Source: a virus
DNA: 40,633 nt
Virus genome (UHGV): UHGV-0140992
Direction: 5' to 3' (one strand)
Part shown: piece by piece, positions 7,561 through 34,255 of the stretch
Layout: each line of letters begins with the position of its first letter
Position numbering within the stretch: position 1 is the first letter of the stretch
Program-made: the position numbers and the translations under genes
The notes under the pieces: generated by a model
Database searches by the model: none
Told to the model about the DNA's origin: nothing
The model's input: the letters and a program-made list of their open reading frames with translations, nothing else

Positions 7561-7637
7561 GTGGCATTAGCTCAGTTGGACAGAGCAACCGCCTTCTAAG
7601 CGGTTGGTCGCAGGTTCGAATCCTGCATGCCACGCCA
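7561..7637 (+). tRNA. tRNA-Arg (anticodon TCT)
   Basis: cloverleaf folded by hand: acceptor GTGGCAT/ATGCCAC, D-arm GCTC..GAGC, anticodon stem ACCGC/GCGGT with loop CTTCTAA, T-arm GCAGG-TTCGAAT-CCTGC, discriminator G plus CCA; close to E. coli argU. Confidence 0.85.
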
Positions 7638-16836: not shown

Positions 16837-17421
16837 ATGAAAAGTATCCAGGACGTCCGCAGGCAAAATCTCAACGACTTGATCGACCGTGAATTCAATG
16901 GTGTTCAGACGCGGATGGCAGAAAAACTTGGAACTCAGGCAAATCTGGTAAACCGCTGGGCTCTTGGCAAGAAGGTTATCGGCGACCAGGTTGCACGAAA
17001 AATTGAAGCTGCCGCCAATAAACCCCGTAACTGGCTTGATATTGATCGTTCGCTTTCTCAGGAGGGTTTTCAGCCTGTCGGCCCGAGCGATATAGGTCAG
17101 CTGGCGGCTCACAACCTGGAACGCTGGATGAGCGAAAGCCGCGACCTTTCAACACAGGGAAAACTTCACCGCGCATCCGGCGTCGCCCAGGTGACAATCA
17201 GCCGCCTGTTAAACAATGAGGTCAGCGTTTCCATTTCCACCCTGGAGAATGTTGCATCCGCATTCGGGCGTCACGGATATGAACTACTGATTCACCCGCA
17301 CGACCCTGCGACTATCAACTATGACCGCTCACGCTACGCATTGTTACCCGAAACCGAGAAAGCAAAGATCGAAAGTTACATTGAATTTGTCATCAACCAG
17401 AACGAAAAAAGCAAACAATAA
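16837..17421 (+). CDS. CI-like immunity repressor, 194 aa, two HTH-like segments, no S24 peptidase domain
   Basis: divergent from the Cro-like gene across the operators; HTH-type N-terminus; no Ala-Gly / GDSM / Lys autocleavage motifs seen. Confidence 0.7.
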   Translation: MKSIQDVRRQNLNDLIDREFNGVQTRMAEKLGTQANLVNRWALGKKVIGDQVARKIEAAANKPRNWLDIDRSLSQEGFQPVGPSDIGQLAAHNLERWMSESRDLSTQGKLHRASGVAQVTISRLLNNEVSVSISTLENVASAFGRHGYELLIHPHDPATINYDRSRYALLPETEKAKIESYIEFVINQNEKSKQ

Positions 17422-25178: not shown

Positions 25179-28100
25179 CGTTCTTCCAGAGACTGAATCC
25201 GCTCTTTTATCTTATCCATTTCTCTGCGCTGCCATGCTGCCTCGATATAGAATAAGAGATCAGGTCTGACCCCCCATCTAGATCCTGCTGGCGTTATTTC
25301 AACGCGCTCAATGATGTCTTCCATTACCATCACTGGATTATCATCCTCATCAACAATGATGCTCCCGTCATTATCAGTCAGCGGCATTTCCCTTTGGCCA
25401 GTAATGACGTCATCATATACTGCGGGATAATCGTCATAGCAAAGAAAGGCATAGCGGCATGTTGTGCTTTCTTCTTCCATGAGTCCGTGAGAAATAAGAA
25501 CATCACGAAGTTGCTGCGCGATTACACCATGATGTATCCTCGCCCCTTCTTCCCCCTTTATAGCGACAGCGTTCAGCCATTTATAAGCGATATACCTGAC
25601 GTCACCCCAGGCATCCAGCAATGCTTCGTCAGGAGAGACCGGCTCTGTCTTTAATGTTCCGTCACTGGTAACCACAGGATTGGAGCCAAGATAAACTGTC
25701 GAGAACCTGTTTCCCGGACCACCAAGAGCATTTACATTATCAAGATAAGGTTTAACATCTCCGTTCTCAAAAAGATGTTCGAGTGCGTTATATACCGCGC
25801 GACGTGGAGTACTGCTTCCGGAACCATGCAACGTTATCATTGCACCATCTGCTGAAGACGTTATTTCACCGCCGCTAACGATTAATCTCTGAGCGGTAAC
25901 ATCATCAGACGGTACTTTCTTCGCAATAATGGCGTAATTACCCTCAAGTTTGACTTCCGCGCGAACTTGTCCTGATGTACCTGCATGGACAGTCAGTGAC
26001 TGGACGGCAACATCATCTGTGAAATCAACGGGTACAGGAACCGTCCTCACGCCTGACGTCGACATAAAAGTAGGAAGCGTTCTGTTAGGAGTGGCTCCGT
26101 AGACAAAATCCCTTGAAACAAATTCTTCCTGTTTAATTTTCACCCTGAAACAATACAAATCAGCCGGGTGACCATCGTGAACATAAGGATATTTTCTGTT
26201 GTTATCCCCTATGCTCCATGGGTTTAGAAAGTCTTCCCCACCGAAAATGTAGTACAGCCAGTTGTCTTTGATACAAACTGAACCAACACCAACTGCAGAG
26301 TTAACTATTCCGCCCTGATAAATCTGATCAGTAACATTAACCCACTCTACATTATCCAGACTCCACTCATTGACGTTAACTCTGGTCATAAATGTTCTTG
26401 GATAATTTCCTGCATAACGGTTATCAGGTTCTCCTCCTTCCCACTCACCAAATGCGCGCTCACTGCCAAAAATAATCAGCTCATCGCCAACTTTGGCAAA
26501 AGGAAGGTTTGAGTGATGAACATTATTTGGGAAGCGAAGAGAATTCCATGATGTACCTAAATCAGAGCTTCTGTGCAATGAACTACCGGGTTGAGTACTT
26601 AATGTCCCCCTGGTCGTCAGATACAGAATGCCATCATAATATTTTACACATGGCTCAGATGCATTCGCCTCATATTCTGCAGGTATGCGTCTGCGAACAA
26701 AGCTACCAGGAGAACCGAAAGCATCAGAGAAATAGAGTATCCCAAGCTCGCGTGGACCAATATCACCATTATGGTAGCCAACAGCAAAACTGTTATCGCT
26801 AATCGTCGCAAAACTGTGAATCTCAGTAACAGGAGTGCTTCCGTCAACAAAAGAAGGAATAGTTCCAAGACTGGTTTTTCTCCATGGTGACGAGTGAAAT
26901 GATGTACCAAAACTCCAGTATCTACCCTCGTTATTCTGATCCACATCCTGGGTATTTTGCGTCGTAACTGTAAAAGTATTTTTATCAATAACAGTAGTCA
27001 CCGTCATATTCCCGGTAACACCTGTAACACCAGAGTTTGAGAAGTTGACAAAATCACCAGCAAATAATCCGTGATCAGTAATGCGAATATAAGCGACTTG
27101 CTGATTTGCTGCTTTCGTTATACCACCATAAGCGCGAAGGCTGCGACTCATTGGGCGATCCCACAACTCTGCAACCTGCAGTTTATTTCCGCTCACGGTC
27201 CGCGTCTCAATTACAGCAAAAAGGCGATTTCTGACAACCCCCATACTCATGCAGTGATAGTTAACTGTGGGATAGTTTTCATGTAAATCTGTAAGCCATT
27301 CCGGCGTTGTCCAGGTCTTCCCGTCATCTCCTGAGCGAACCCATGCAACATGGAGGTTATTTACACCATGGCGGTCTCCAGCCATAAAAGGCGCATAGAT
27401 GACATTGTCATATACAAACGTTTTATCCTGCGTCCAGGCGTTGTACCACGGTGTATCTGTAATTTTAAATAACTCTCCCTGGATAAAATCTTCAGAAGCA
27501 TAAAAAAGAGGCTGGCCCGGTATTCTCTCAAATAAAAAACGAGCATTTTTAAATCGACTGACATCCGGAAGAGTTGATACTTTAAAAGTAAGCCCTAATC
27601 CGTCAATTTTATAACCTGGAGATGAGGCTTCAAGGCACGCGCTTATTGCAGTGGAATCGTCATTTATACCATCACCAACAGCTCCAAAATCTTTGGGGCT
27701 AATAGCATCACGCATTTTATCCTGGAACGTTCGGTACACAGCCCCAGAACCATACTGAATAAACCAACCAAAACCACCAACAACCCCGGCGATTGCAGCA
27801 TCGACATAATTACGCATTGAGCGATTATTTACAGCGTCCTGCTCAAATGATGGATCTGCAAGGTTAGAAATTTTGTTTTGCTTTGCATCGTAATATTTTG
27901 CAAGCAAAGATGGTTTCATCAATGCACGTCTGAACCACCCAAAACATTGCTGGATCAGCATCGTCAGGTAGTCAAAGGCATCTTCATGCACTTCGGGGAA
28001 AAATTTTCCCTGATTGCGAAGGTCTGTCTCCTGCACTACATCAAGCACACGATCTATCGTAATTCGCCATCCAGTAGCAAGCGGAGACGGAAGAACCACA

Positions 28101-28294
28101 GAACCGCCACTATAAGTGCCCGCCCCAGTTACCGTATAACCGGTATCCAGAACCAATTCTGTTACGTTTCCGTTCAGGTCAGACACCTGAACAACCAGGT
28201 CTGATTTTCTGAAAATTCGAAAAGTATACGGAAACGATGTCGTAACGCCGTTACCGGTGTATTCGTTGTGGTCAACTTCGGTTGAGACCGTCAT
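25175..28294 (-). CDS. tailspike endo-N-acetylneuraminidase (K1 endosialidase) with C-terminal intramolecular chaperone domain, 1039 aa
   Basis: long blocks match recalled phage K1F endosialidase (FERIPGQPLFYASEDFIQGELFKITDTPWYNAW ... EWLTDLHENYPTVNYHCMSMGV); chaperone-domain motifs (LGSNPVVTS, TEPV, DAWGDV) near the C-terminus. Confidence 0.85.
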   Translation of the reverse strand: MTVSTEVDHNEYTGNGVTTSFPYTFRIFRKSDLVVQVSDLNGNVTELVLDTGYTVTGAGTYSGGSVVLPSPLATGWRITIDRVLDVVQETDLRNQGKFFPEVHEDAFDYLTMLIQQCFGWFRRALMKPSLLAKYYDAKQNKISNLADPSFEQDAVNNRSMRNYVDAAIAGVVGGFGWFIQYGSGAVYRTFQDKMRDAISPKDFGAVGDGINDDSTAISACLEASSPGYKIDGLGLTFKVSTLPDVSRFKNARFLFERIPGQPLFYASEDFIQGELFKITDTPWYNAWTQDKTFVYDNVIYAPFMAGDRHGVNNLHVAWVRSGDDGKTWTTPEWLTDLHENYPTVNYHCMSMGVVRNRLFAVIETRTVSGNKLQVAELWDRPMSRSLRAYGGITKAANQQVAYIRITDHGLFAGDFVNFSNSGVTGVTGNMTVTTVIDKNTFTVTTQNTQDVDQNNEGRYWSFGTSFHSSPWRKTSLGTIPSFVDGSTPVTEIHSFATISDNSFAVGYHNGDIGPRELGILYFSDAFGSPGSFVRRRIPAEYEANASEPCVKYYDGILYLTTRGTLSTQPGSSLHRSSDLGTSWNSLRFPNNVHHSNLPFAKVGDELIIFGSERAFGEWEGGEPDNRYAGNYPRTFMTRVNVNEWSLDNVEWVNVTDQIYQGGIVNSAVGVGSVCIKDNWLYYIFGGEDFLNPWSIGDNNRKYPYVHDGHPADLYCFRVKIKQEEFVSRDFVYGATPNRTLPTFMSTSGVRTVPVPVDFTDDVAVQSLTVHAGTSGQVRAEVKLEGNYAIIAKKVPSDDVTAQRLIVSGGEITSSADGAMITLHGSGSSTPRRAVYNALEHLFENGDVKPYLDNVNALGGPGNRFSTVYLGSNPVVTSDGTLKTEPVSPDEALLDAWGDVRYIAYKWLNAVAIKGEEGARIHHGVIAQQLRDVLISHGLMEEESTTCRYAFLCYDDYPAVYDDVITGQREMPLTDNDGSIIVDEDDNPVMVMEDIIERVEITPAGSRWGVRPDLLFYIEAAWQRREMDKIKERIQSLEER

Positions 28295-28398
28295 GTTAAA
28301 TCTCCAGATAGTCGCAGCACCCGTTGCGCCGCATATCTGGTTATTCTATTACCTGGAAAACCACATATGGATAGAAAGGATGTAAATACGAATAGATA

Positions 28399-28413
28399 TT
28401 ACCTTTCAGGTAA
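28399..28413. promoter_or_regulatory. operator-type site TTACCTTTCAGGTAA
   Basis: identical 15-mer to 7224; in the divergent region between tailspike and the LexA-box gene. Confidence 0.45.
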
Positions 28414-28450
28414 TTTGCAAAACGTGCTGGATAGCAAACAAATTATTTGA

Positions 28451-28470
28451 TACTGTATAAATATACAGTT
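28451..28470. promoter_or_regulatory. LexA (SOS) box TACTGTATAAATATACAGTT
   Basis: 18 of 20 match to consensus TACTGTATATATATACAGTA, intact CTGT-N8-ACAG, overlaps a TATAAAT -10-like element about 20 bp before the downstream ATG. Confidence 0.65.
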
Positions 28471-28489
28471 ATTGCATGGAGAAGATAAG

Positions 28490-28747
28490 ATGCAGCAGTA
28501 TCACTATCCACTGGAAGACGGATTTACCGAAAGGATTCACACGCCGGGAGGCGTCAGGTCACTGGTGGAGGGATCGCACTTGATGAAATTACTCCGGGAT
28601 CTCGATAAGGATGGATTTAATGTCGATGGCCCACTTGCCGAACTGACTGCACTGATTAACTACGTCACCAGCTCACAGATGTCTATGCAGGATCTGCAAA
28701 CACATCTCGACTATTGTGCCGAACAATTACGAAAACAAACCCGGTAA
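28490..28747 (+). CDS. small antirepressor-like protein, 85 aa (track 28472 is TTG; ATG at 28490)
   Basis: GGAGAAG RBS; LexA box and operator upstream; about 45 percent identical by eye to the C-terminal domain of the Bro-N protein at 29896..30606. Confidence 0.55.
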   Translation: MQQYHYPLEDGFTERIHTPGGVRSLVEGSHLMKLLRDLDKDGFNVDGPLAELTALINYVTSSQMSMQDLQTHLDYCAEQLRKQTR

Positions 28748-28769
28748 ATTTAAAGGCCGCAAGAGCGGC

Positions 28770-29498
28770 CTATCGTTTCGCTTTGTGCTCGTCCCAGCAC
28801 GTTTTGCACCATGCCATTAAGCCGTCCGCATTTTGATTATTAGGGTAAAAGCTGGTCCGTTTTCTGCGGACATTACAAATTGGGCACCACTTCATATGGC
28901 GTGTATTCTTTGGGCCATCGAGACACCTTGCACACCACTTAGTCAATCCATCTGGATTTTTTGACGATTTCCGGAATTTGTCATATGGAAGGTTTATTCT
29001 GCATCGCAAACACTGCTTGCGGCCACTTGAAACTCTGTTAGCTGATTCTTCTTTTGGCGGCGATACAGAAGGTATTCTTGCTGGCTCTGATACTGCCTGA
29101 GGTGCTTTTTTAGATGACTGAGACGATATGTCATCACCAGGGAATCTTCCATGATATGCCGGACGCATTGATACTCCAGGTGGAAGCTCAGCTGTAAACG
29201 GCTTTGGCTGAATCAGTTGCCTCTCTTTTGCTAACTCCTGCTGTTTACAATATGTCTGGATTACCGCACTATCATAAGCAGGAGGTGCGGAAATATTAGG
29301 CGCATTACCTCCAGTTTTTTGAAACTGAGTAGAGGTGTGTTCTATCACCTGTGTACGATTAATCGTTATCTCCCCATCTTCGGTCTTTATCGTTTTGTTA
29401 TGATTAACGACCGTACGATCAGAGATCTTAGTCTTGTTCTGGTTGATAACGTAAATAATCACCGCAACCACACCAACAACTATCCAGAAAACTTCCAT
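28770..29498 (-). CDS. membrane-anchored protein with duplicated CxxC zinc-ribbon module, 242 aa
   Basis: N-terminal TM helix; two copies of CxxC-x(20)-DGL-xx-WC-xx-C; GAGGAA RBS. Confidence 0.5.
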   Translation of the reverse strand: MEVFWIVVGVVAVIIYVINQNKTKISDRTVVNHNKTIKTEDGEITINRTQVIEHTSTQFQKTGGNAPNISAPPAYDSAVIQTYCKQQELAKERQLIQPKPFTAELPPGVSMRPAYHGRFPGDDISSQSSKKAPQAVSEPARIPSVSPPKEESANRVSSGRKQCLRCRINLPYDKFRKSSKNPDGLTKWCARCLDGPKNTRHMKWCPICNVRRKRTSFYPNNQNADGLMAWCKTCWDEHKAKR

Positions 29499-29518
29499 TG
29501 CTTTTCCTCACAATAACA

Positions 29519-29626
29519 TTACCTTAAAGGTAATATCTTGCTTTCAGGTGATCAAGCGTTAAACGCCACCAACCAAATACGGTTGATTTTGATATTTCTC
29601 CGCGTTTATCATTACCTTTGCGGTAA
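29519..29626. promoter_or_regulatory. operator-type sites TTACCTTAAAGGTAA (29519..29533) and TTACCTTTGCGGTAA (29612..29626)
   Basis: perfect half-sites between the divergent 242-aa gene and the Bro-N gene. Confidence 0.45.
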
Positions 29627-29639
29627 ATTTACATCGCAC

Positions 29640-29880
29640 TCCTCTTGTGCCATAGTAATCGGGCACTGGCAAAATCCAGTGCCGGGATTGGCGTCCCGGG
29701 TTACTAAGTGGCGCATACCACGCCAGACGTGGTTTTTTTATGCGTTAAGCACAGCTATATCCGAATTATGGTGGGCTGGGCAGGGGTCCGAAAGGACGCC
29801 GGTACCACTTAGGCCGGTACGCCAACCTTGTCCAGTTCACCACCAGTAATTGGCGTTGCGGTGGTGATTAAAATCACTAA
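29640..29880 (+). other. highly structured non-coding leader upstream of the Bro-N gene
   Basis: nested inverted repeats GGCACTGG-caaaat-CCAGTGCC and CCGGGA-ttggcg-TCCCGG; CCACG-ccaga-CGTGG followed by TTTTTTTA; direct repeat GCCGGTAC. Confidence 0.3.
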
Positions 29881-29895
29881 GTGGAGATAACCACC

Positions 29896-30606
29896 ATGGC
29901 TAATGCTCAAACTTCCATCTTCAAATTTGAATCTGTTAACCCTATCCGTTCCATCATTATCGATGGCCAACCATGGTTTGTAGCCCAAGACGTTTGTAGT
30001 GCGCTGCGTATCCAAAACGTCACCCAAGCACTTGAAAAACTGGATGATGATGAAAGGTCTATGTTCAACATAGGGCATGAACATCGTGCAATTTTTGACA
30101 GCCGAGTAAAAGAGATCAACATCATCTCCGAGTCAGGCCTCTACACACTGATCCTCCGCTGCCGCGACGCAGTGACACCAGGCACTATCCCCTACCGCTT
30201 TCGTAAATGGGTTACGGGTGAGGTTCTTCCTCAGATCCGCCGCACCGGAAGCTACATTAAAAACTCGCTCCCGCAGGAAGAACGCATAAAGATGGTTGCC
30301 GACCAGGTGGCCAACGCCACGGCGTCAGCAGTAATGCAGGCGATGAAGATAGAGAACAAAACCTACAGCGCCCCACTGAATCCCGGCTACCGCAGCCTGA
30401 TTCATTCGCCGTCTGGTGTTCTCGGCCTGACGGAGAACTCACTGCTGATGAATCTGCTGAACCAGTTACAGGACGACGGGCACGACGTATCGGGCGCGGC
30501 GGCGGAGCTGACCACCATGTTCTGCTACATCGTCGGTGTGAGCAAATGCCTGCGTGATATCCAGACCCACGCGGAATACATCAACGACAAGGCAGGGTTC
30601 TTCTGA
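29896..30606 (+). CDS. Bro-N domain antirepressor-like protein, 236 aa (ATG at 29896)
   Basis: N-terminal Bro-N-type motifs (FKFESVNPIRSIIIDGQPWFVAQDVCSAL); C-terminal domain paralogous to the 28490 gene. Confidence 0.65.
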   Translation: MANAQTSIFKFESVNPIRSIIIDGQPWFVAQDVCSALRIQNVTQALEKLDDDERSMFNIGHEHRAIFDSRVKEINIISESGLYTLILRCRDAVTPGTIPYRFRKWVTGEVLPQIRRTGSYIKNSLPQEERIKMVADQVANATASAVMQAMKIENKTYSAPLNPGYRSLIHSPSGVLGLTENSLLMNLLNQLQDDGHDVSGAAAELTTMFCYIVGVSKCLRDIQTHAEYINDKAGFF

Positions 30607-30613
30607 CGGGCGG

Positions 30614-30640
30614 TGGCACAGGGATGTGCCTTTAAATAAT
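30614..30640 (+). terminator. weak intrinsic terminator after the Bro-N gene
   Basis: ggcaca-ggga-tgtgcc followed by TTTAAATAATT. Confidence 0.3.
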
Positions 30641-30678
30641 TCTGTACAGATTGCAGACTGTGGGTGAATAGCGTACTA

Positions 30679-30693
30679 TTACCTTAAAGGTAA
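30679..30693. promoter_or_regulatory. operator-type site TTACCTTAAAGGTAA
   Basis: identical to 29519; immediately before AGGAGG and the ATG at 30706. Confidence 0.45.
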
Positions 30694-30705
30694 AGGAGGC
30701 GCGAT

Positions 30706-30873
30706 ATGACAGCGTTGAAAAATCGTACTCAGCACAATGAACAAGCCAAGCAATGCTGGGATGTCATTGGAAAAGTTATGCTTGGCCGCGCAAGCAAAGA
30801 GCGCGACAAGGATATGGTTTACCAGACAGGAACATCTTTCAGCGACTTCAAGGCGGCATTTCGCTCCAAATAG
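30706..30873 (+). CDS. possible small protein, 55 aa (MTALKNRTQHNEQAKQCWDVIGKVMLGRASK...)
   Basis: AGGAGG RBS 6 nt upstream; operator directly upstream; below the ORF-track cutoff. Confidence 0.4.
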   Translation: MTALKNRTQHNEQAKQCWDVIGKVMLGRASKERDKDMVYQTGTSFSDFKAAFRSK

Positions 30874-30893
30874 AAGCACATCAGGAGTTTTCC

Positions 30894-31334
30894 TTGAAGT
30901 TTAACATTAGAATATCTAATAGTTTTCTACATGGGGAAAGCAACACCCCTTTCGCTGTAGACGGACCTTTCCTTACTGATGATGAAATAAAAATCATACA
31001 AAGTTTTTTAGAGGATGTTGCCAATGGAAGGGCGCTTGTTGGAAAAAACAAGCCCTCGTGGGTTGATGATAACCATGATAAAATTCCCGGCTCAGACAAT
31101 TATGAGCAAGAGAATTATTGGCATTATCATTGTGGGCCAACATGGTATCCAAACACATTTAAGAATTATACCATTAACTTAAATTTCAACCCTGGCGGAA
31201 GGCATTCTAATGAATGCATTCATTATGCAAAAAATGATAATGAAATTGTCATTGTTGGATTTTCAAGAGAACACATACCTTTCCTTTCATCAGATGGAAA
31301 CAACAATCCGCTTTTTAATGATGAAGAAGAATAG
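30894..31334 (+). CDS. hypothetical AT-rich moron protein, about 146 aa (TTG start; track ORF begins 30753)
   Basis: AGGAG RBS 7 nt before in-frame TTG; markedly AT-rich codons versus flanks; acidic C-terminus. Confidence 0.4.
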   Translation: MKFNIRISNSFLHGESNTPFAVDGPFLTDDEIKIIQSFLEDVANGRALVGKNKPSWVDDNHDKIPGSDNYEQENYWHYHCGPTWYPNTFKNYTINLNFNPGGRHSNECIHYAKNDNEIVIVGFSREHIPFLSSDGNNNPLFNDEEE

Positions 31335-31426
31335 CCCGCGCTGCGGGCTTTTTTGTGGACGAAACAAAAGTCAGTGCTACACTCATTGACGCCACATTGA
31401 GGTGGCTTATAGATGGAAATTTCACA

Positions 31427-31588
31427 ATGAAAAAAGCATTTGCTGCACTGTTCGTTTTGTTGTCTCTGGTAGCTTCAACTCAGGCCTTTGCCGGTCGTTG
31501 TCAGCACGACAGCGACACTGCTGCTGACGGCTCCCGCTGCGGTGGGCGTTCTGCGGACTCCCGTCCGGGCGGCGGTGGCATTCGTTAA
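31427..31588 (+). CDS. small secreted Gly/Cys-containing peptide, 53-aa precursor with signal peptide
   Basis: MKKAFAALFVLLSLVASTQAFA signal-like N-terminus with AFA-G cleavage context; 31-aa Gly/Asp/Arg-rich mature part with two Cys. Confidence 0.35.
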   Translation: MKKAFAALFVLLSLVASTQAFAGRCQHDSDTAADGSRCGGRSADSRPGGGGIR

Positions 31589-31594
31589 AAACAA

Positions 31595-31610
31595 GGCCGC
31601 GAAAGCGGCC
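31595..31610 (-). terminator. hairpin GGCCGC-GAAA-GCGGCC with minus-strand U-run
   Basis: 6-bp GC stem, GAAA loop; TTGTTTTTAA follows on the minus strand. Confidence 0.4.
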
Positions 31611-31611
31611 T

Positions 31612-31623
31612 GTGACATGTCAC
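31612..31623. repeat. perfect palindrome GTGACATGTCAC, copy 3 of 3
   Basis: exact 12-mer between the small hydrophobic ORF stop and the hairpin. Confidence 0.6.
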
Positions 31624-31630
31624 GCTCACG

Positions 31631-31771
31631 TTATGACAAGCCTATGTACCCTGCTACACCAGATAATATCATAATAACTGCAACAGCAAATTCGCCATCG
31701 TCAATGATACATTTACGGTTCATAACGCCAAGTGCAACAAGCGCAAACACAACAAGAATAAAAGCAATCAT
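31631..31771 (-). CDS. possible small hydrophobic protein, 46 aa (MIAFILVVFALVALGVMNRKCIIDDGEFAVAVIMILSGVAGYIGLS)
   Basis: GGATGAGAA RBS-like context 10 nt after the 824-aa gene stop; two hydrophobic segments; below the ORF-track cutoff. Confidence 0.3.
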   Translation of the reverse strand: MIAFILVVFALVALGVMNRKCIIDDGEFAVAVIMILSGVAGYIGLS

Positions 31772-31780
31772 TTCTCATCC

Positions 31781-34255
31781 TTATTGCGGAGTGACATCCT
31801 GTGGTCGCCACCAGTATGTCTGGTTAAACTCTTTCTTCGAACGTTGCTCCATTTTACGCAAATAACCTGGTGAAAAATACTCCTGCATCTGGTTAAAGAT
31901 CATGTGATCGAGAGCCGCCTTCAAGTACCAGAGATTCGCACCTGGCATCAGACCTTTCCCCAGCTTAACCAGATCACCACCAGTCTGCTCACTCTTCCCT
32001 TCCACAGCATTTAACGGTATGCCCTGAGCAATCTTCACTACGTCATCAACCAGACCAGCTACCGGGCCAAGCATCGACGCCAGCGCGCCGCTTCCGTACC
32101 TAGTGTGATCTGACAATAAAAAGTCACCGTAAAGGCCAAGACCACCACCTTTCAGTAGAGCACCAAGCCAAAATTTAGCAGCATCTTCTCCTGTCATCTC
32201 GCGAGGATTACGACCAGACGCAAGGTCGTTAAGTTGCTGCGACAAAGCGCCAAGAATGGTCGTACTGGCAATAAACGTCGCAATATATGCCGCACGCCCA
32301 CCAGCAGACGGCATACCCATAGCGCGTGACCAGTGACGCATAACCACCGAGATAGGGAACGATTTAAACAGGAAAACACTTCTCGTTAATTCACCTTTCC
32401 ATGTTCCACGCTGAATACCAGAACCGGTTATCAGTTGCTCACGTGCTCCCGGTGTAATAACAGCCATATCAACTTCTTCAGTTACGGCACCGAGCAGTTT
32501 ACGCATTGCCTCAAATTTCACGCGTTCAGGCTCACCAAGATGTTTAACTGCTGAATCAGGGATACGCATAATGCTTTCCGGTGTCAGCATCGTATTATTA
32601 CCGTTCCCCCAGTCCTCCTGTTTCGCCAGCTTCCATACGCTCCAGTCTGTGTCAGTAATCCCTTTGCTTTTCAGGATACGAAAATCAGAGTCATCGAGGC
32701 TACGAAGGTCTGGTGTACGTGACACTACTTCTCCCAGGCTTCCCATCATGGTTACGCCATAGGCGCGCTTGTGCGCATCTGACCATGCTGTAAGCCCACT
32801 GGCACGCATTACCGCCGTTGCCGCCCAACGAGACACTGACGGCCCCATATTATCCATCGCCCAGCGGTTAACGCTGCCAAGTAGAGATTCCATCGCCAGA
32901 CCAGCGCGGCGCGCCCGCGCAAGTTCTGTACGGTTCGTTGGGTCCATAGCTTCAAGCTGGTTGCGGAATAACTGGTTCATTGGAAGGTTGGTAACCTTCG
33001 CAGACAGATACATGGTTCCAAGATCAGAGAACGATGACAGCAACGCGGATCCGAGTCTGCTGGCAACCAGCCAGTTGCGGATATTGTCAGACCATCGCGC
33101 GATGTGCGGATTCGCTACAGGCTGTGTCTTTCCGGAAATAAAGTTGTACAGATTCTCTGTGTTGTTCGCCAGCCGCTCGACTTTACCGGTTTTACTCGGG
33201 TTAGCTGTTGCCGTTTCTGCCTTCACCTGATCAAGAAGAGAGCGGAAAACATGATCGGGGTTTGGGCCATATGTTTCCACCAGTGCAATATCTTTACTGA
33301 TACCTTCCAGGTGACCGACCATGATTTCCCATAGAGAGCGATCGCCATAAAGTTGCTGATATTGCAGATAGGAATCTGCATCTTTGAAATGTATCTGTCG
33401 TGATGCATTACCACGGTTAGCACGTGCGCCGGAAATTCGCATTCCGGTATCAGTAAGCTTATTCAGCCCACCAGTAGCGATCGTGTTATAAGCCTCTCCA
33501 AGAAATGAAGACAACTCGGCATCGTTCATCAGTTGTCCATCGGCTCGGATATAATATTTGCGATCCAGCTTACCTATAACATCGCTAACCCACTTATCCT
33601 TTGATACTGCCCCAACCTTTTCCATAGAATGATGTTGAGGGATCCCCCAGTTTTCGAGATAGCCAATGTCCCCACCAGCATCATTAAACCGGCGGCGCAG
33701 CAGCTCTGTAACTTCTCTCCACGCCTTAGCACCGTTTCTTGCTTTAGCATTGCCAGTATTTTGCCCCCGCATTTCATATACCAGGTCACGTACGCCCGCT
33801 TCATCTTCAAACAGACCAAAAAAGCGAGGATCAACTGCTTCGAATGCCTCCTGCAATTGACTCAATGCATAATCACGGGTGGCTTTTGTTCTGGATTCAA
33901 CAGAGAGGAAATTAGATTTACCGTCTGCATTAAAAGCTATAGTACGGTTAAGAGCGCCAAGTTTCCCATCAGCCCCTTGATAGCTATTGATAAATTTATC
34001 CAATCTCTGACGCGCGGCTATAGTGAGAGCCACACGACGTTTCTTTAATGCCGCTTCTCGCTGTAATTCTTCAGATGCCAATTGTGCTGCTCGATATAGC
34101 CGCTCTGATTCGGAAAGTTGTCTCCACGACATCGGGTCATCACGAGCAATGGAGCGCATATTTCGATAAATGCGGTCTTCAATGTTCTGTATTTCTCGCG
34201 CCGTTAACGTGCGCTGCGCCGCCTGCTGGACCGCTTGTATACATTCCTGTCTCAT
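31781..34255 (-). CDS. internal virion / ejection protein, 824 aa
   Basis: large co-oriented protein in the gp14-gp16-equivalent block after the tail tube genes. Confidence 0.55.
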   Translation of the reverse strand: MRQECIQAVQQAAQRTLTAREIQNIEDRIYRNMRSIARDDPMSWRQLSESERLYRAAQLASEELQREAALKKRRVALTIAARQRLDKFINSYQGADGKLGALNRTIAFNADGKSNFLSVESRTKATRDYALSQLQEAFEAVDPRFFGLFEDEAGVRDLVYEMRGQNTGNAKARNGAKAWREVTELLRRRFNDAGGDIGYLENWGIPQHHSMEKVGAVSKDKWVSDVIGKLDRKYYIRADGQLMNDAELSSFLGEAYNTIATGGLNKLTDTGMRISGARANRGNASRQIHFKDADSYLQYQQLYGDRSLWEIMVGHLEGISKDIALVETYGPNPDHVFRSLLDQVKAETATANPSKTGKVERLANNTENLYNFISGKTQPVANPHIARWSDNIRNWLVASRLGSALLSSFSDLGTMYLSAKVTNLPMNQLFRNQLEAMDPTNRTELARARRAGLAMESLLGSVNRWAMDNMGPSVSRWAATAVMRASGLTAWSDAHKRAYGVTMMGSLGEVVSRTPDLRSLDDSDFRILKSKGITDTDWSVWKLAKQEDWGNGNNTMLTPESIMRIPDSAVKHLGEPERVKFEAMRKLLGAVTEEVDMAVITPGAREQLITGSGIQRGTWKGELTRSVFLFKSFPISVVMRHWSRAMGMPSAGGRAAYIATFIASTTILGALSQQLNDLASGRNPREMTGEDAAKFWLGALLKGGGLGLYGDFLLSDHTRYGSGALASMLGPVAGLVDDVVKIAQGIPLNAVEGKSEQTGGDLVKLGKGLMPGANLWYLKAALDHMIFNQMQEYFSPGYLRKMEQRSKKEFNQTYWWRPQDVTPQ

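What the first reader, a model, noticed from the sequence alone, without database searches (positions are those of the whole stretch)
29534..29895. About 340 bp of structured non-coding leader before the Bro-N gene: possible regulatory RNA or attenuator
Between operator 29519 and the ATG at 29896 lie a second operator, nested GC-rich inverted repeats, a short hairpin followed by a T7 run, and a GCCGGTAC direct repeat. The track ORF 29538..29849 has implausible composition. This recalls antisense-RNA control of antirepressors in P22 (sar) and P1 (c4).
Basis: inference. Interest (0 to 1): 0.55.

Follow-up and report, generated by a model that had tools for sequence, protein, structure and literature searches.

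The report
P1-type C4 antisense control of antirepressor
The "structured leader" before the Bro-N gene holds two known small-RNA genes, an IsrK-like leader RNA and a C4 antisense RNA, which together form the phage P1-style switch that keeps a prophage's antirepressor silent; it is a real but ordinary, previously unannotated example in an epsilon15-like phage.

Summary
Rfam places an IsrK RNA at 29663-29739 (67.7 bits, cut-off 50) and a C4 antisense RNA at 29764-29847 (66 bits, cut-off 45). C4 displays two exposed segments: b' CCACUUAG (29805-12) and a' ACGCCAA (29819-25). Each is exactly complementary to two sites. One pair, a1 and b1 (29688-94, 29704-11), lies in the IsrK-like RNA. The other pair, a2 and b2 (29850-56, 29877-84), lies in the Bro-N leader, and b2 overlaps the Shine-Dalgarno GGAG nine bases before the ATG at 29896. 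The order and spacing match the annotated P1 immI region. Across 16 further loci (relatives, P1, Gifsy-1), a1/a'/a2 and b1/b'/b2 change together. The most likely mechanism is that C4, cut from read-through transcripts, blocks translation of the Bro-N antirepressor, and that the terminated IsrK-like RNA competes for C4. Differences from P1: there is no icd-like ORF, and the antirepressor is unrelated to P1 Ant. This is a new member of a known kind, of modest interest.

The parts
29518..29534 (.). Operator-like palindrome ATTACCTTAAAGGTAAT, between the divergent 242-aa gene (ATG 29498, minus strand) and the RNA module
   Evidence: It is one of 11 exact TTACC-N5-GGTAA sites in the window (0.04 expected). 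Three sites (16767, 17479, 17541) flank the HTH repressor-like ORF 16837-17421. Binding was not tested.
29611..29627 (.). Second operator-like site ATTACCTTTGCGGTAAA, abutting the -35 hexamer. Its position corresponds to the C1 operator Oc4/Op51 of P1.
   Evidence: P1 annotation. It is conserved at this position in the nine Uetakevirus-type relatives shown.
29628..29656 (+). Sigma-70-type promoter: TTTACA, 17 nt, TGcCATAGT. The predicted start is near G29663.
   Evidence: The geometry matches P1 promoter P1c4/P51b: the -10 hexamer ends 6 nt before position 1 of the isrK model. A -35/-10 pair at the same distance is present in all relatives. Activity is inferred.
29663..29739 (+). IsrK-like leader RNA. 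Hairpin 1 is 29663-29682. Hairpin 2 is 29683-29698 and presents a1. The linker carries b1. The terminator hairpin is 29717-29733, followed by U7.
   Evidence: Rfam isrK RF01394: 67.7 bits against a cut-off of 50. c4-a1b1 RF03163: 44.1 bits against 46.7 over 29650-29702. Fold. Terminator.
29688..29694 (+). a1 site UUGGCGU, in the loop of IsrK hairpin 2
   Evidence: Exact complement of a' (I3). Co-variation a1-a': 95.5% of cells paired, 4 of 7 pairs changed on both sides, 0 of 500 shuffles as high.
29704..29711 (+). b1 site CUAAGUGG, in the single-stranded linker
   Evidence: Exact complement of b' (I7). It changes together with b' in relatives.
29764..29847 (+). C4 antisense RNA gene. The predicted mature RNA is 29770-29844, by alignment to the annotated ends of P1 c4.
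   Evidence: Rfam C4 RF01695: 66 bits against a cut-off of 45. The minimum-energy fold equals the family structure, z = -5.0. Compensatory changes occur in the closing stem and hairpins. P1 ends.
29805..29812 (+). b' CCACUUAG, in the loop of C4 hairpin 2
29819..29825 (+). a' ACGCCAA, in the single-stranded stretch between hairpin 2 and the closing stem of C4
29850..29856 (+). a2 target UUGGCGU in the antirepressor mRNA leader
   Evidence: I4. Co-variation a'-a2: 95.5% of cells paired, 0 of 500 shuffles as high.
29877..29886 (+). b2 target CUAAGUGG (29877-29884), overlapping the Shine-Dalgarno GGAG (29883-29886)
   Evidence: I8. Predicted duplex b'-b2 is -12.6 kcal/mol.
29860..29895 (+). Leader hairpin: GGUGGUGAU (29860-68) pairs with AUAACCACC (29887-95), leaving b2 and the SD in the loop. 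The 5' arm can alternatively pair with the C4 3' strand (29837-44).
   Evidence: I9, I10, D4. Support from relatives is weak: most changes are G-C to G-U.
29896..30606 (+). Regulated gene: Bro-N domain antirepressor (236 aa)
   Evidence: Pfam Bro-N, E = 9.6e-20. PHROG 'anti-repressor Ant', E = 3e-56. It is 81% identical to ORF4 of phage ZX5, whose over-expression lowered lysogeny about 1000-fold (PMC9782041).

Best explanation
The region is the immunity-I-type (immI) module of an epsilon15/phiV10-like temperate phage (genus Uetakevirus). One promoter drives two small RNAs and the antirepressor gene.

1. Transcription starts near 29663, from a sigma-70 promoter at 29628-29656 that directly follows a prophage-repressor operator.
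2. Many transcripts stop at the intrinsic terminator (29717-29739). This gives a 77-nt IsrK-like RNA that displays the a1 and b1 sequences.
3. Read-through transcripts carry the C4 RNA. By homology with P1 and P7, RNase P cuts before G29770 to release a C4 RNA of about 75 nt.
4. The C4 loop b' and single strand a' pair with b2 and a2 in the leader of the Bro-N antirepressor mRNA. This covers the ribosome-binding site, so no antirepressor is made and lysogeny is kept. An incoming phage with the same a/b specificity is silenced in the same way.
5. The IsrK-like RNA, or the same sequence in cis within read-through RNA, carries identical a1/b1 sites. It therefore competes for C4 and relieves the block.

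Shown here: family membership, exact complementarity, overlap with the SD, and co-variation. Inferred: promoter activity, partial termination, RNase P processing, the direction of regulation, and the decoy role.
For: - Rfam matches above the curated cut-offs: isrK 67.7 bits against 50, and C4 66 bits against 45.
- Every C4 copy folds on its own into the family structure. Fold z = -5.0 on the plus strand, against -1.2 on the minus strand.
- An automated search for complements of the C4 loop and single strand returned exactly the annotated a1, b1, a2 and b2 sites of P1. In the window it returned 29688, 29704, 29850 and 29877.
- Spacings match P1:
  - a1 to b1: 16 nt here, 14 in P1.
  - a2 to b2: 27 nt here, 29 in P1.
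  - b2 to ATG: 19 nt here, 18 in P1.
  - C4 end to a2: 3 nt here, 4 in P1.
- The 17 loci carry four a specificities and about eleven b specificities. In each locus all three copies change together.
- Cognate C4-target duplexes rank first in 12 of 13 cases for both the leader and the IsrK targets. Mean energy is -21 kcal/mol for cognate pairs and -14.5 for non-cognate pairs.
- Formal pair counts for a1-a' and a'-a2: 95.5% of cells paired, co-variation score 0.33-0.36 against 0.095 in shuffles (0 of 500 as high) and at most 0.125 when partners are slid.
- Only two a-then-b sites within 40 nt exist on the plus strand of the whole window.
- The cargo is an antirepressor.
- In Gifsy-1, the type IsrK locus contains a C4 match in 'orf45' (69 bits). 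Published mutants there show pairing between IsrK and orf45. The paired mutations G28/G31 and C159/C162 are each three positions apart, as expected if they lie in a1 and a'; that assignment is my own inference from the sequence, not a tool result. IsrK supplied in trans raised antirepressor translation about 140-fold (PMC4825925).
- P1 biology is summarised in PMC8198154 and PMC5320573.
Against: - There are no expression data for this phage. The promoter, the terminator efficiency and the processing are all inferred.
- The c4-a1b1 model scores 44.1 bits, just under its cut-off of 46.7.
- P1 uses an intermediate ORF (icd) and Rho-dependent polarity. Neither can be shown here, and no icd-like ORF exists.
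- The Gifsy-1 authors explain IsrK activation through orf45 translation, not through titration of C4.
- The operator sits at about -44, which fits neither a textbook repression nor a textbook activation position, so its effect is unknown.
- The shuffle test for the IsrK targets alone is only moderate: z = -3.1, with 11 of 2000 shuffles as good.
Confidence: 0.8

Rival explanations
1. P4-type control of transcription. C4 pairs with a1/b1 and a2/b2 on the nascent transcript and causes premature termination, either at the 29717-29739 terminator or by Rho downstream. The block would then be on transcription rather than on ribosome binding. This could act together with the main explanation.
For: A terminator lies directly after a1/b1. 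The Gifsy-1 paper points to P4 seqA as a structural homologue of IsrK and raises this possibility. In P1, blocked icd translation leads to loss of ant transcription; this rests on my own knowledge of Biere, Citron and Schuster 1992.
Against: b2 overlaps the SD in the window and in most relatives. That overlap is what a translational block needs and is not required for termination control. In Gifsy-1, constitutive STnc1160 did not reduce the IsrK effect.
Confidence: 0.2
2. Gifsy-1-type translational coupling. A small ORF that starts at the C4 AUG (29768) must be translated for the antirepressor to be made, and the IsrK-like RNA activates that ORF.
For: The AUG of AUGGUGGG is conserved in all loci, and this model has experimental support in Gifsy-1.
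Against: In the window this frame stops after 14 codons, at 29812, which is 84 nt before the Bro-N ATG. Across relatives its length varies from 3 aa to a fusion with the downstream gene. The AUG is conserved because it is part of the C4 closing stem.
Confidence: 0.04
3. The region encodes a protein: ORF 29538-29849, or an 'Ash family' protein as annotated in some relatives.
For: An open frame of 103 codons exists. Frames of 91-104 codons are open in the closest relatives. Records for ZX5 and yong2 annotate 'ash family protein' over this DNA.
Against: The ORF has no Pfam match (not scanned against PHROGs). The frame carries 2-4 stops in ST11-OXA245phi3.2, Tyrion, EC.W1-9 and Kp4865-1. Sequence change follows base-pairing, not codons. 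There is no SD, and the start codon is TTG.
Confidence: 0.02
4. P22 sar-type cis-antisense RNA, transcribed from the opposite strand across the antirepressor start.
For: Only the general analogy, namely antisense control of an antirepressor.
Against: There is no sar match at E<=10. No minus-strand promoter-like site lies near 29896-30000. The structure is specific to the plus strand. The complementary sites are short and act in trans.
Confidence: 0.02

Closest known systems
immI operon of phages P1 and P7 (Oc4/Op51, P51a/P51b, a1 b1, c4, a2 b2, icd, ant1/ant2)
   Same: - The order of elements is the same, and the spacings are nearly identical.
- C4 has the same three-helix fold, with b' in the hairpin-2 loop and a' in the following single strand.
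- b2 overlaps the SD of the first downstream gene.
- A main-repressor operator lies just upstream of the promoter.
- The GGU at the RNase P cleavage site and the CCACC 3' end are conserved.
   Different: - The a and b sequences differ: TTGGCGT and CTAAGTGG here, TTGACAG and GTTAGTG in P1.
- There is no icd-like ORF, so C4 targets the antirepressor SD directly.
- The antirepressor is a Bro-N protein with no detectable similarity to P1 Ant1.
- The operator is a symmetric TTACC-N5-GGTAA site, not the asymmetric C1 site.
- The host phage is an integrating podovirus rather than a plasmid prophage.
IsrK / orf45 (STnc1160) / anrP locus of Salmonella prophage Gifsy-1
   Same: - Both loci carry the same isrK RNA with an intrinsic terminator.
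- A C4 match lies directly downstream (Gifsy-1: 69 bits at L017 1646-1729).
- The a and b sites follow the same logic, and b2 lies on the antirepressor SD.
- In Gifsy-1, partial read-through and trans-activation by the short RNA are shown experimentally.
   Different: - The Gifsy-1 orf45 runs to the anrP start codon and is needed for coupling. The same frame here ends 84 nt before the ATG.
- The published Gifsy-1 model does not invoke C4 antisense repression.
- The genomic position differs: next to the Q antiterminator in Gifsy-1, and between the tail fibre and ejection-protein genes here.
isrK + c4 + Bro-N arrangement in the APSE phages of Hamiltonella
   Same: Both sRNA families are reported next to a Bro-N gene, with a'/b' matching the non-coding region upstream of that gene (PMC7313666).
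   Different: The phage group is different (P22-like). That paper treats IsrK as a separate virulence-linked sRNA and reports a second a'/b' match in a DNA polymerase gene. No second bipartite site exists in this window.
P4 immunity (CI RNA with seqA, seqB and seqC)
   Same: A processed small RNA from the leader of its own operon pairs with repeated sites upstream and downstream of itself (PMC4825925).
   Different: P4 acts by premature transcription termination of replication genes, not on an antirepressor SD. This was not tested here.
P22 immI (sar antisense RNA, Mnt, Arc, Ant)
   Same: It is a secondary immunity region that controls an antirepressor, at a comparable place in a podovirus genome.
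   Different: sar is a cis-encoded RNA from the opposite strand. No sar, arc or mnt equivalent was detected here.

Membership tests
C4 antisense RNA system (P1/P7 immI; Rfam RF01695, clan CL00128) | The RNA matches the C4 covariance model at or above the curated score and folds into a closing stem with two inner hairpins | tested here: met
   66 bits against a cut-off of 45. The minimum-energy fold equals the family structure, z = -5.0. Compensatory changes occur in relatives.
C4 antisense RNA system (P1/P7 immI; Rfam RF01695, clan CL00128) | Exposed a' and b' are complementary to a2 and b2 just downstream, and b2 overlaps the ribosome-binding site of the next gene | tested here: met
   Exact matches of 7 and 8 nt at 29850 and 29877, with GGAG at 29883-86. 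The same procedure recovered the annotated P1 sites.
C4 antisense RNA system (P1/P7 immI; Rfam RF01695, clan CL00128) | A second copy of the targets (a1, b1) lies upstream of c4 in the same transcript | tested here: met
   Sites at 29688 and 29704. The c4-a1b1 model scores 44.1 bits against 46.7, just under the cut-off. The overlapping isrK model scores 67.7 against 50.
C4 antisense RNA system (P1/P7 immI; Rfam RF01695, clan CL00128) | Specificity sequences co-vary between C4 and its targets in different phages (the basis of heteroimmunity) | tested here: met
C4 antisense RNA system (P1/P7 immI; Rfam RF01695, clan CL00128) | C4 is released from a longer transcript by RNase P | not testable with these tools
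   Only sequence features are present: GGU at the aligned 5' end (29770) and CCACC at the 3' end, as in P1.
C4 antisense RNA system (P1/P7 immI; Rfam RF01695, clan CL00128) | The first regulated ORF is icd, whose translation is needed for ant transcription | tested here: not met
   The first ORF after b2 is the 236-aa Bro-N protein itself. Some relatives (yong2, YpM41, SW-37) do have a short first ORF.
C4 antisense RNA system (P1/P7 immI; Rfam RF01695, clan CL00128) | The regulated product is an antirepressor | tested here: met
   Annotation and homology only: PHROG anti-repressor at E = 3e-56, and 81% identity to ZX5 ORF4, which has an over-expression phenotype. The protein is not homologous to P1 Ant1.
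IsrK (Rfam RF01394; Gifsy-1) | Match to the covariance model at or above the curated score, ending in an intrinsic terminator | tested here: met
   67.7 bits against a cut-off of 50. The terminator was found independently.
IsrK (Rfam RF01394; Gifsy-1) | A downstream orf45 whose stop overlaps the antirepressor start (translational coupling) | tested here: not met
   The frame ends at 29812, 84 nt before the ATG.
IsrK (Rfam RF01394; Gifsy-1) | Hfq binding and trans-activation by the short RNA | not testable with these tools
   No computation available here addresses this.
P22 sar antisense RNA | An RNA transcribed from the opposite strand across the ant ribosome-binding site | tested here: not met
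   No Rfam sar match at E<=10. No minus-strand promoter-like site lies there.

The most novel reading that the evidence does not exclude
IsrK and the P1 a1b1 leader are the same element, and Gifsy-1 'orf45/STnc1160' is a C4 RNA. On that reading, the widespread isrK-C4 cassette is a three-part RNA switch.

- C4 represses the antirepressor.
- The terminated IsrK leader is a dedicated decoy for C4.
- Terminator read-through sets the ratio of the two RNAs.

In Uetakeviruses the a and b specificity blocks assort independently. The window shares b with phiv142-3 and a with TL-2011b. This would give combinatorial immunity types.
Probability: 0.4. Interest if true: 0.5.

Novelty: new member of a known kind. 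Interest (0 to 1): 0.3.

Why it matters
- Annotation: the non-coding gap upstream of the antirepressor in epsilon15/phiV10-type phages gets a correct annotation. In the annotated public records examined, this DNA is blank, marked only 'terminator', or called a protein ('ash family protein').
- Biology: the result predicts which related phages should be mutually immune at this second immunity layer. It also gives a simple handle, the a/b sequences, for engineering or typing them.
- Literature: the data link two bodies of work that the papers I could search treat separately. One covers P1 c4 and the other covers Salmonella IsrK; a 2025 review lists them as unrelated entries. This suggests re-reading the Gifsy-1 results as relief of C4 repression.

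Tried and rejected
- tRNA or tmRNA in the region: none. The only tRNA is at 7561.
- P22 sar and other Rfam families at E<=10: only chance-level hits besides isrK, C4 and c4-a1b1.
- Coding potential of ORF 29538-29849 and ORF 29708-29812: no Pfam hit (neither was scanned against PHROGs), and the frame is not conserved.
- Gifsy-type orf45 coupling: the frame is closed in the window.
- Leader hairpin 29860-29895: RNAalifold finds it, but with a weak co-variation term (-0.42) and mostly G-C to G-U changes, so it is kept only as a possibility.
- Formal pair counting for the b sites: not attempted, because MAFFT does not keep the variable-length b loops in register. The per-sequence table and the energy matrix were used instead.
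- RNAalifold on the terminator region missed the clamp helix for the same register reason. A per-sequence scan was only partly successful.
- Similarity of the Bro-N protein to P1 Ant1: none.
- Additional bipartite C4 targets elsewhere in the window: none.

Full report
**Observation**

- Two operator-like palindromes are present: ATTACCTTAAAGGTAAT at 29518-29534 and ATTACCTTTGCGGTAAA at 29611-29627.
- Their core, TTACC-N5-GGTAA, occurs 11 times in the 40.6-kb window, against 0.04 expected in shuffles. Three of these sites flank a 194-aa helix-turn-helix repressor-like ORF at 16837-17421.
- The terminator scan finds a hairpin at 29717-29733 followed by seven T.
- GCCGGTAC occurs at 29798 and 29813.
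- ORF 29538-29849 exists. It has no Pfam hit (it was not scanned against PHROGs), and its frame is broken by 2-4 stops in the more distant relatives.

**What it is**

A scan of 28000-32000 against Rfam gave three overlapping or adjacent matches on the plus strand.

| Family | Coordinates | Bits | Curated cut-off |
|---|---|---|---|
| isrK (RF01394) | 29663-29739 | 67.7 | 50 |
| C4 antisense RNA (RF01695) | 29764-29847 | 66.0 | 45 |
| c4-a1b1 (RF03163) | 29650-29702 | 44.1 | 46.7 |

- The first two matches also pass in a gathering-threshold scan of the whole window. That scan otherwise finds only one tRNA.
- The C4 segment folds on its own into the family structure: a 17-bp closing stem and two inner hairpins, at -43.6 kcal/mol with z = -5.0. 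Its reverse complement does not (z = -1.2).
- No sar-like or other family reaches significance.

**Anatomy**

C4 exposes b' CCACUUAG (29805-12) in the loop of hairpin 2. It exposes a' ACGCCAA (29819-25) in the single strand that follows.

| Element | Sequence | Coordinates | Context |
|---|---|---|---|
| a1 | UUGGCGU | 29688-94 | loop of IsrK hairpin 2 |
| b1 | CUAAGUGG | 29704-11 | linker before the terminator |
| a2 | UUGGCGU | 29850-56 | Bro-N mRNA leader |
| b2 | CUAAGUGG | 29877-84 | Bro-N mRNA leader |

- b2 overlaps the Shine-Dalgarno GGAG (29883-86), which lies nine bases before the ATG at 29896.
- The repeat finder recovers these relations independently (D2, D3, I3, I4, I7, I8).
- They are the only two a-then-b sites within 40 nt on the plus strand of the window.
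- Predicted duplexes are -12.6 kcal/mol for b and -10 to -12 kcal/mol for a. The summed energy for the leader is exceeded by 1 of 2000 shuffles.
- A sigma-70-type promoter (TTTACA, 17 nt, TGcCATAGT; 29628-29656) ends six bases before position 1 of the isrK match.

**Comparison with P1**

The annotated P1 record lists, in order: the C1 operator Oc4 (Op51), promoters P51a and P51b, a1, b1, c4, a2, b2, icd and ant.
- My complement search, applied blindly to P1, returned exactly the annotated a1, b1, a2 and b2 positions. This validates the method.
- Spacings are almost identical in the two phages:

| Interval | Window (nt) | P1 (nt) |
|---|---|---|
| a1 to b1 | 16 | 14 |
| a2 to b2 | 27 | 29 |
| b2 to start codon | 19 | 18 |
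| -10 hexamer to RNA position 1 | 6 | 6 |

- P1 itself gives C4 at 68.8 bits, c4-a1b1 at 51 bits, and a sub-threshold isrK match (35 bits, E = 8.5e-6) that covers a1, b1 and a terminator-like hairpin. The IsrK RNA and the P1 a1b1 leader are therefore the same element.
- By alignment to the annotated ends of P1 c4, the mature C4 here should be 29770-29844. It would begin with the GGU described for the RNase P cleavage site (PMC5320573).

**Relatives**

The window is a Uetakevirus (epsilon15/phiV10 group).
- The same gap between the tail-fibre gene and the antirepressor gene is conserved in TL-2011b, phiV10, phiv142-3, ZX5, HEMP4, Tyrion and others. In the annotated records the RNAs are not annotated there.
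- A distant DNA search found the cassette in 256 phage records, mostly Stx phages.
- All 15 fetched relatives carry C4 above its cut-off, and 14 of them also carry isrK above its cut-off (SW-37 has only a recognisable IsrK-like sequence).
- The specificity sequences differ between phages, and all three copies always change together:
  - a is TTGGCGT, TTGGTCT, TTGAGAC or TTGACAG.
  - b has about eleven forms, for example CTAAGTGG, CTAAAAGG, CTACAAAGG, GTTATCGG and TCATCATG.
- Each C4 pairs best with its own leader in 12 of 13 cases, and with its own IsrK in 12 of 13 cases.
- Pair counting on the MAFFT alignment gives 95.5% paired cells for both a1-a' and a'-a2, with 4 of 7 pairs changed on both sides. 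The co-variation score is 0.33-0.36, against 0.095 in shuffles (0 of 500 as high) and at most 0.125 when partners are slid. The only unpaired cells are in the P1 row, which the alignment shifts by one column at a' and misplaces at a2.
- The intramolecular helices of IsrK and C4 also show compensatory changes.
- The window combines the a type of TL-2011b with the b type of phiv142-3, so the two blocks assort independently.

**Cargo**

The gene at 29896-30606 has a Bro-N domain (E = 9.6e-20) and matches PHROG 'anti-repressor Ant' (E = 3e-56).
- It is 81% identical to ORF4 of phage ZX5. Over-expression of ORF4 lowered the prophage count from about 10^9 to 10^6 per mL (PMC9782041). That paper does not mention any RNA control.
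- It has no similarity to P1 Ant1.

**Mechanism**

C4 in P1 and P7 is experimentally established. It is processed from the operon transcript by RNase P, and its a' and b' pair with the mRNA so that b' occludes the ribosome-binding site (summaries in PMC5320573 and PMC8198154).
- Given this, I conclude that C4 here blocks translation of the Bro-N antirepressor directly.
- The upstream half is best read through Gifsy-1. There, RNA polymerase partly reads through the IsrK terminator, and short IsrK supplied in trans raises antirepressor translation about 140-fold. Compensatory mutants (G28/G31 with C159/C162) prove pairing between IsrK and 'orf45' (PMC4825925).
- I fetched Gifsy-1 and found that its 'orf45' region is a C4 RNA (69 bits, at L017 1646-1729). 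Its a'/b', a2 and b2 follow the same logic, with b2 on the anrP SD.
- The published IsrK-orf45 helix therefore appears to be a1-a' pairing: the mutated positions are three apart on each side, as expected for sites inside UUGGCGU and ACGCCAA. This assignment is my inference from the sequence.
- The ~80-nt STnc1160 species lies where the processed C4 would be expected.
- The IsrK-like RNA in the window would then act as a competitor that frees the antirepressor mRNA from C4.

**Differences from the two model systems**

- There is no icd-like ORF, so the P1 route through Rho polarity is not required.
- The Gifsy-1 orf45 frame stops after 14 codons here, 84 nt before the Bro-N ATG. Its length varies from 3 codons to a fusion with the downstream gene among relatives. 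Translational coupling therefore cannot operate in the window.

**Uncertain points**

- The operator at 29611-29627 is centred about 44 bp upstream of the predicted start, so its effect on this promoter is unknown.
- A weaker promoter-like site (TTGATT 29583, TATCAT 29612) overlaps the left edge of that operator. It may correspond to the repressor-controlled P51a of P1. This is only a positional analogy.
- A leader hairpin (29860-68 with 29887-95) would place b2 and the SD in a loop, but co-variation support is weak.

**Verdict**

- It is a further member of a well-known and widespread regulatory module. It is unannotated in this phage group and differs from P1 in having direct control of a Bro-N antirepressor.
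- Interest is modest. The most useful by-product is the evidence that IsrK, c4-a1b1 and C4 belong to one system.

Noticed in passing
window 29711-29716 with 29740-29745; also L001-L017: A 'clamp' helix brackets the IsrK terminator: GCGCAU just before the terminator stem pairs with AUGCGU just after the U7 run. The two strands change together in relatives. Examples are GCACAU/AUGUGU in EC.W1-9, GCGACAA/UUGUCGC in sal3, GCGACAG/UUGUCGU in Gifsy-1 and GGACA/UGUCC in P1. The helix can form only in read-through RNA and is not part of the Rfam isrK model. Its function is unknown; it may be a processing site.
   Followed up: partly
L011 1288-1971 (Hafnia phage yong2); L007 1672-1785 (ZX5): CDSs annotated 'Ash family protein' lie over the RNA cassette. 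In yong2 the Pfam Phage_ASH (PF10554) match covers residues 68-161. That corresponds to nt 1489-1770, which spans isrK (1501-1575), C4 (1599-1685) and the leader. The protein family may be, at least in part, a translation of these conserved RNA genes.
   Followed up: partly
L017 1544-1790 (Gifsy-1): The type IsrK locus contains a C4 RNA (69 bits) exactly where 'orf45' and the processed STnc1160 RNA were described. isrK there also overlaps a c4-a1b1 match above its cut-off (48.1 bits). Rfam lists isrK outside the C4 clan, and a 2025 review treats IsrK and c4 as unrelated entries.
   Followed up: partly
window 28472-28747 (+), with an operator-like site at 28399-28413: This 91-aa ORF is a free-standing paralogue of the C-terminal 80 residues of the Bro-N antirepressor (42% identity, E = 4e-15; shared phrog_450 and phrog_15539). 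It has its own operator-like site upstream. It may modulate or mimic the antirepressor.
   Followed up: partly
window 7224, 10347, 14418, 14480, 16767, 17479, 17541, 28399, 29519, 29612, 30679: There are eleven exact copies of TTACC-N5-GGTAA (0.04 expected). They cluster around the repressor-like gene 16837-17421 and lie in front of several small genes near the antirepressor, including the 55-aa ORF at 30706. This is probably the prophage repressor's regulon.
   Followed up: partly
window 29768-29774 with 29891-29897; 29837-29844 with 29860-29867: The 5' strand of the C4 closing stem (AUGGUGG) is complementary to CCACCAU, which includes the Bro-N start codon. The 3' strand (UCACCACC) is complementary to GGUGGUGA in the leader (I14, I9, D4). 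Unprocessed precursor could therefore adopt alternative folds, reminiscent of structures A and B in the Gifsy-1 paper.
   Followed up: no
window 29606-29612 and 29871: Mosaic boundaries are visible in the matches to relatives. Many relatives match only from about 29606 (the second operator) to about 29871 (between a2 and b2). HEMP4 is 99% identical from 29612 onwards, while TL-2011b matches from 29400 to 29871. The RNA cassette appears to be exchanged as a unit, with break points at the operator and just before b2.
   Followed up: no
window 28935-28943, minus strand: A third copy of the 9-mer ACTAAGTGG (the b site plus one base) lies in the mRNA sense of the divergent 242-aa gene, with no a site nearby. 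About 0.3 such copies are expected by chance, so this is probably coincidence.
   Followed up: no
window 28770-29498 (-): The divergent 242-aa protein has an N-terminal membrane-anchor-like segment and C-terminal cysteine-rich repeats. These repeats match PHROG families annotated endonuclease VII, Lar-like restriction alleviation and HNH endonuclease, and weakly match Pfam Stc1. TL-2011b annotates the equivalent stretch only as a misc_feature.
   Followed up: no
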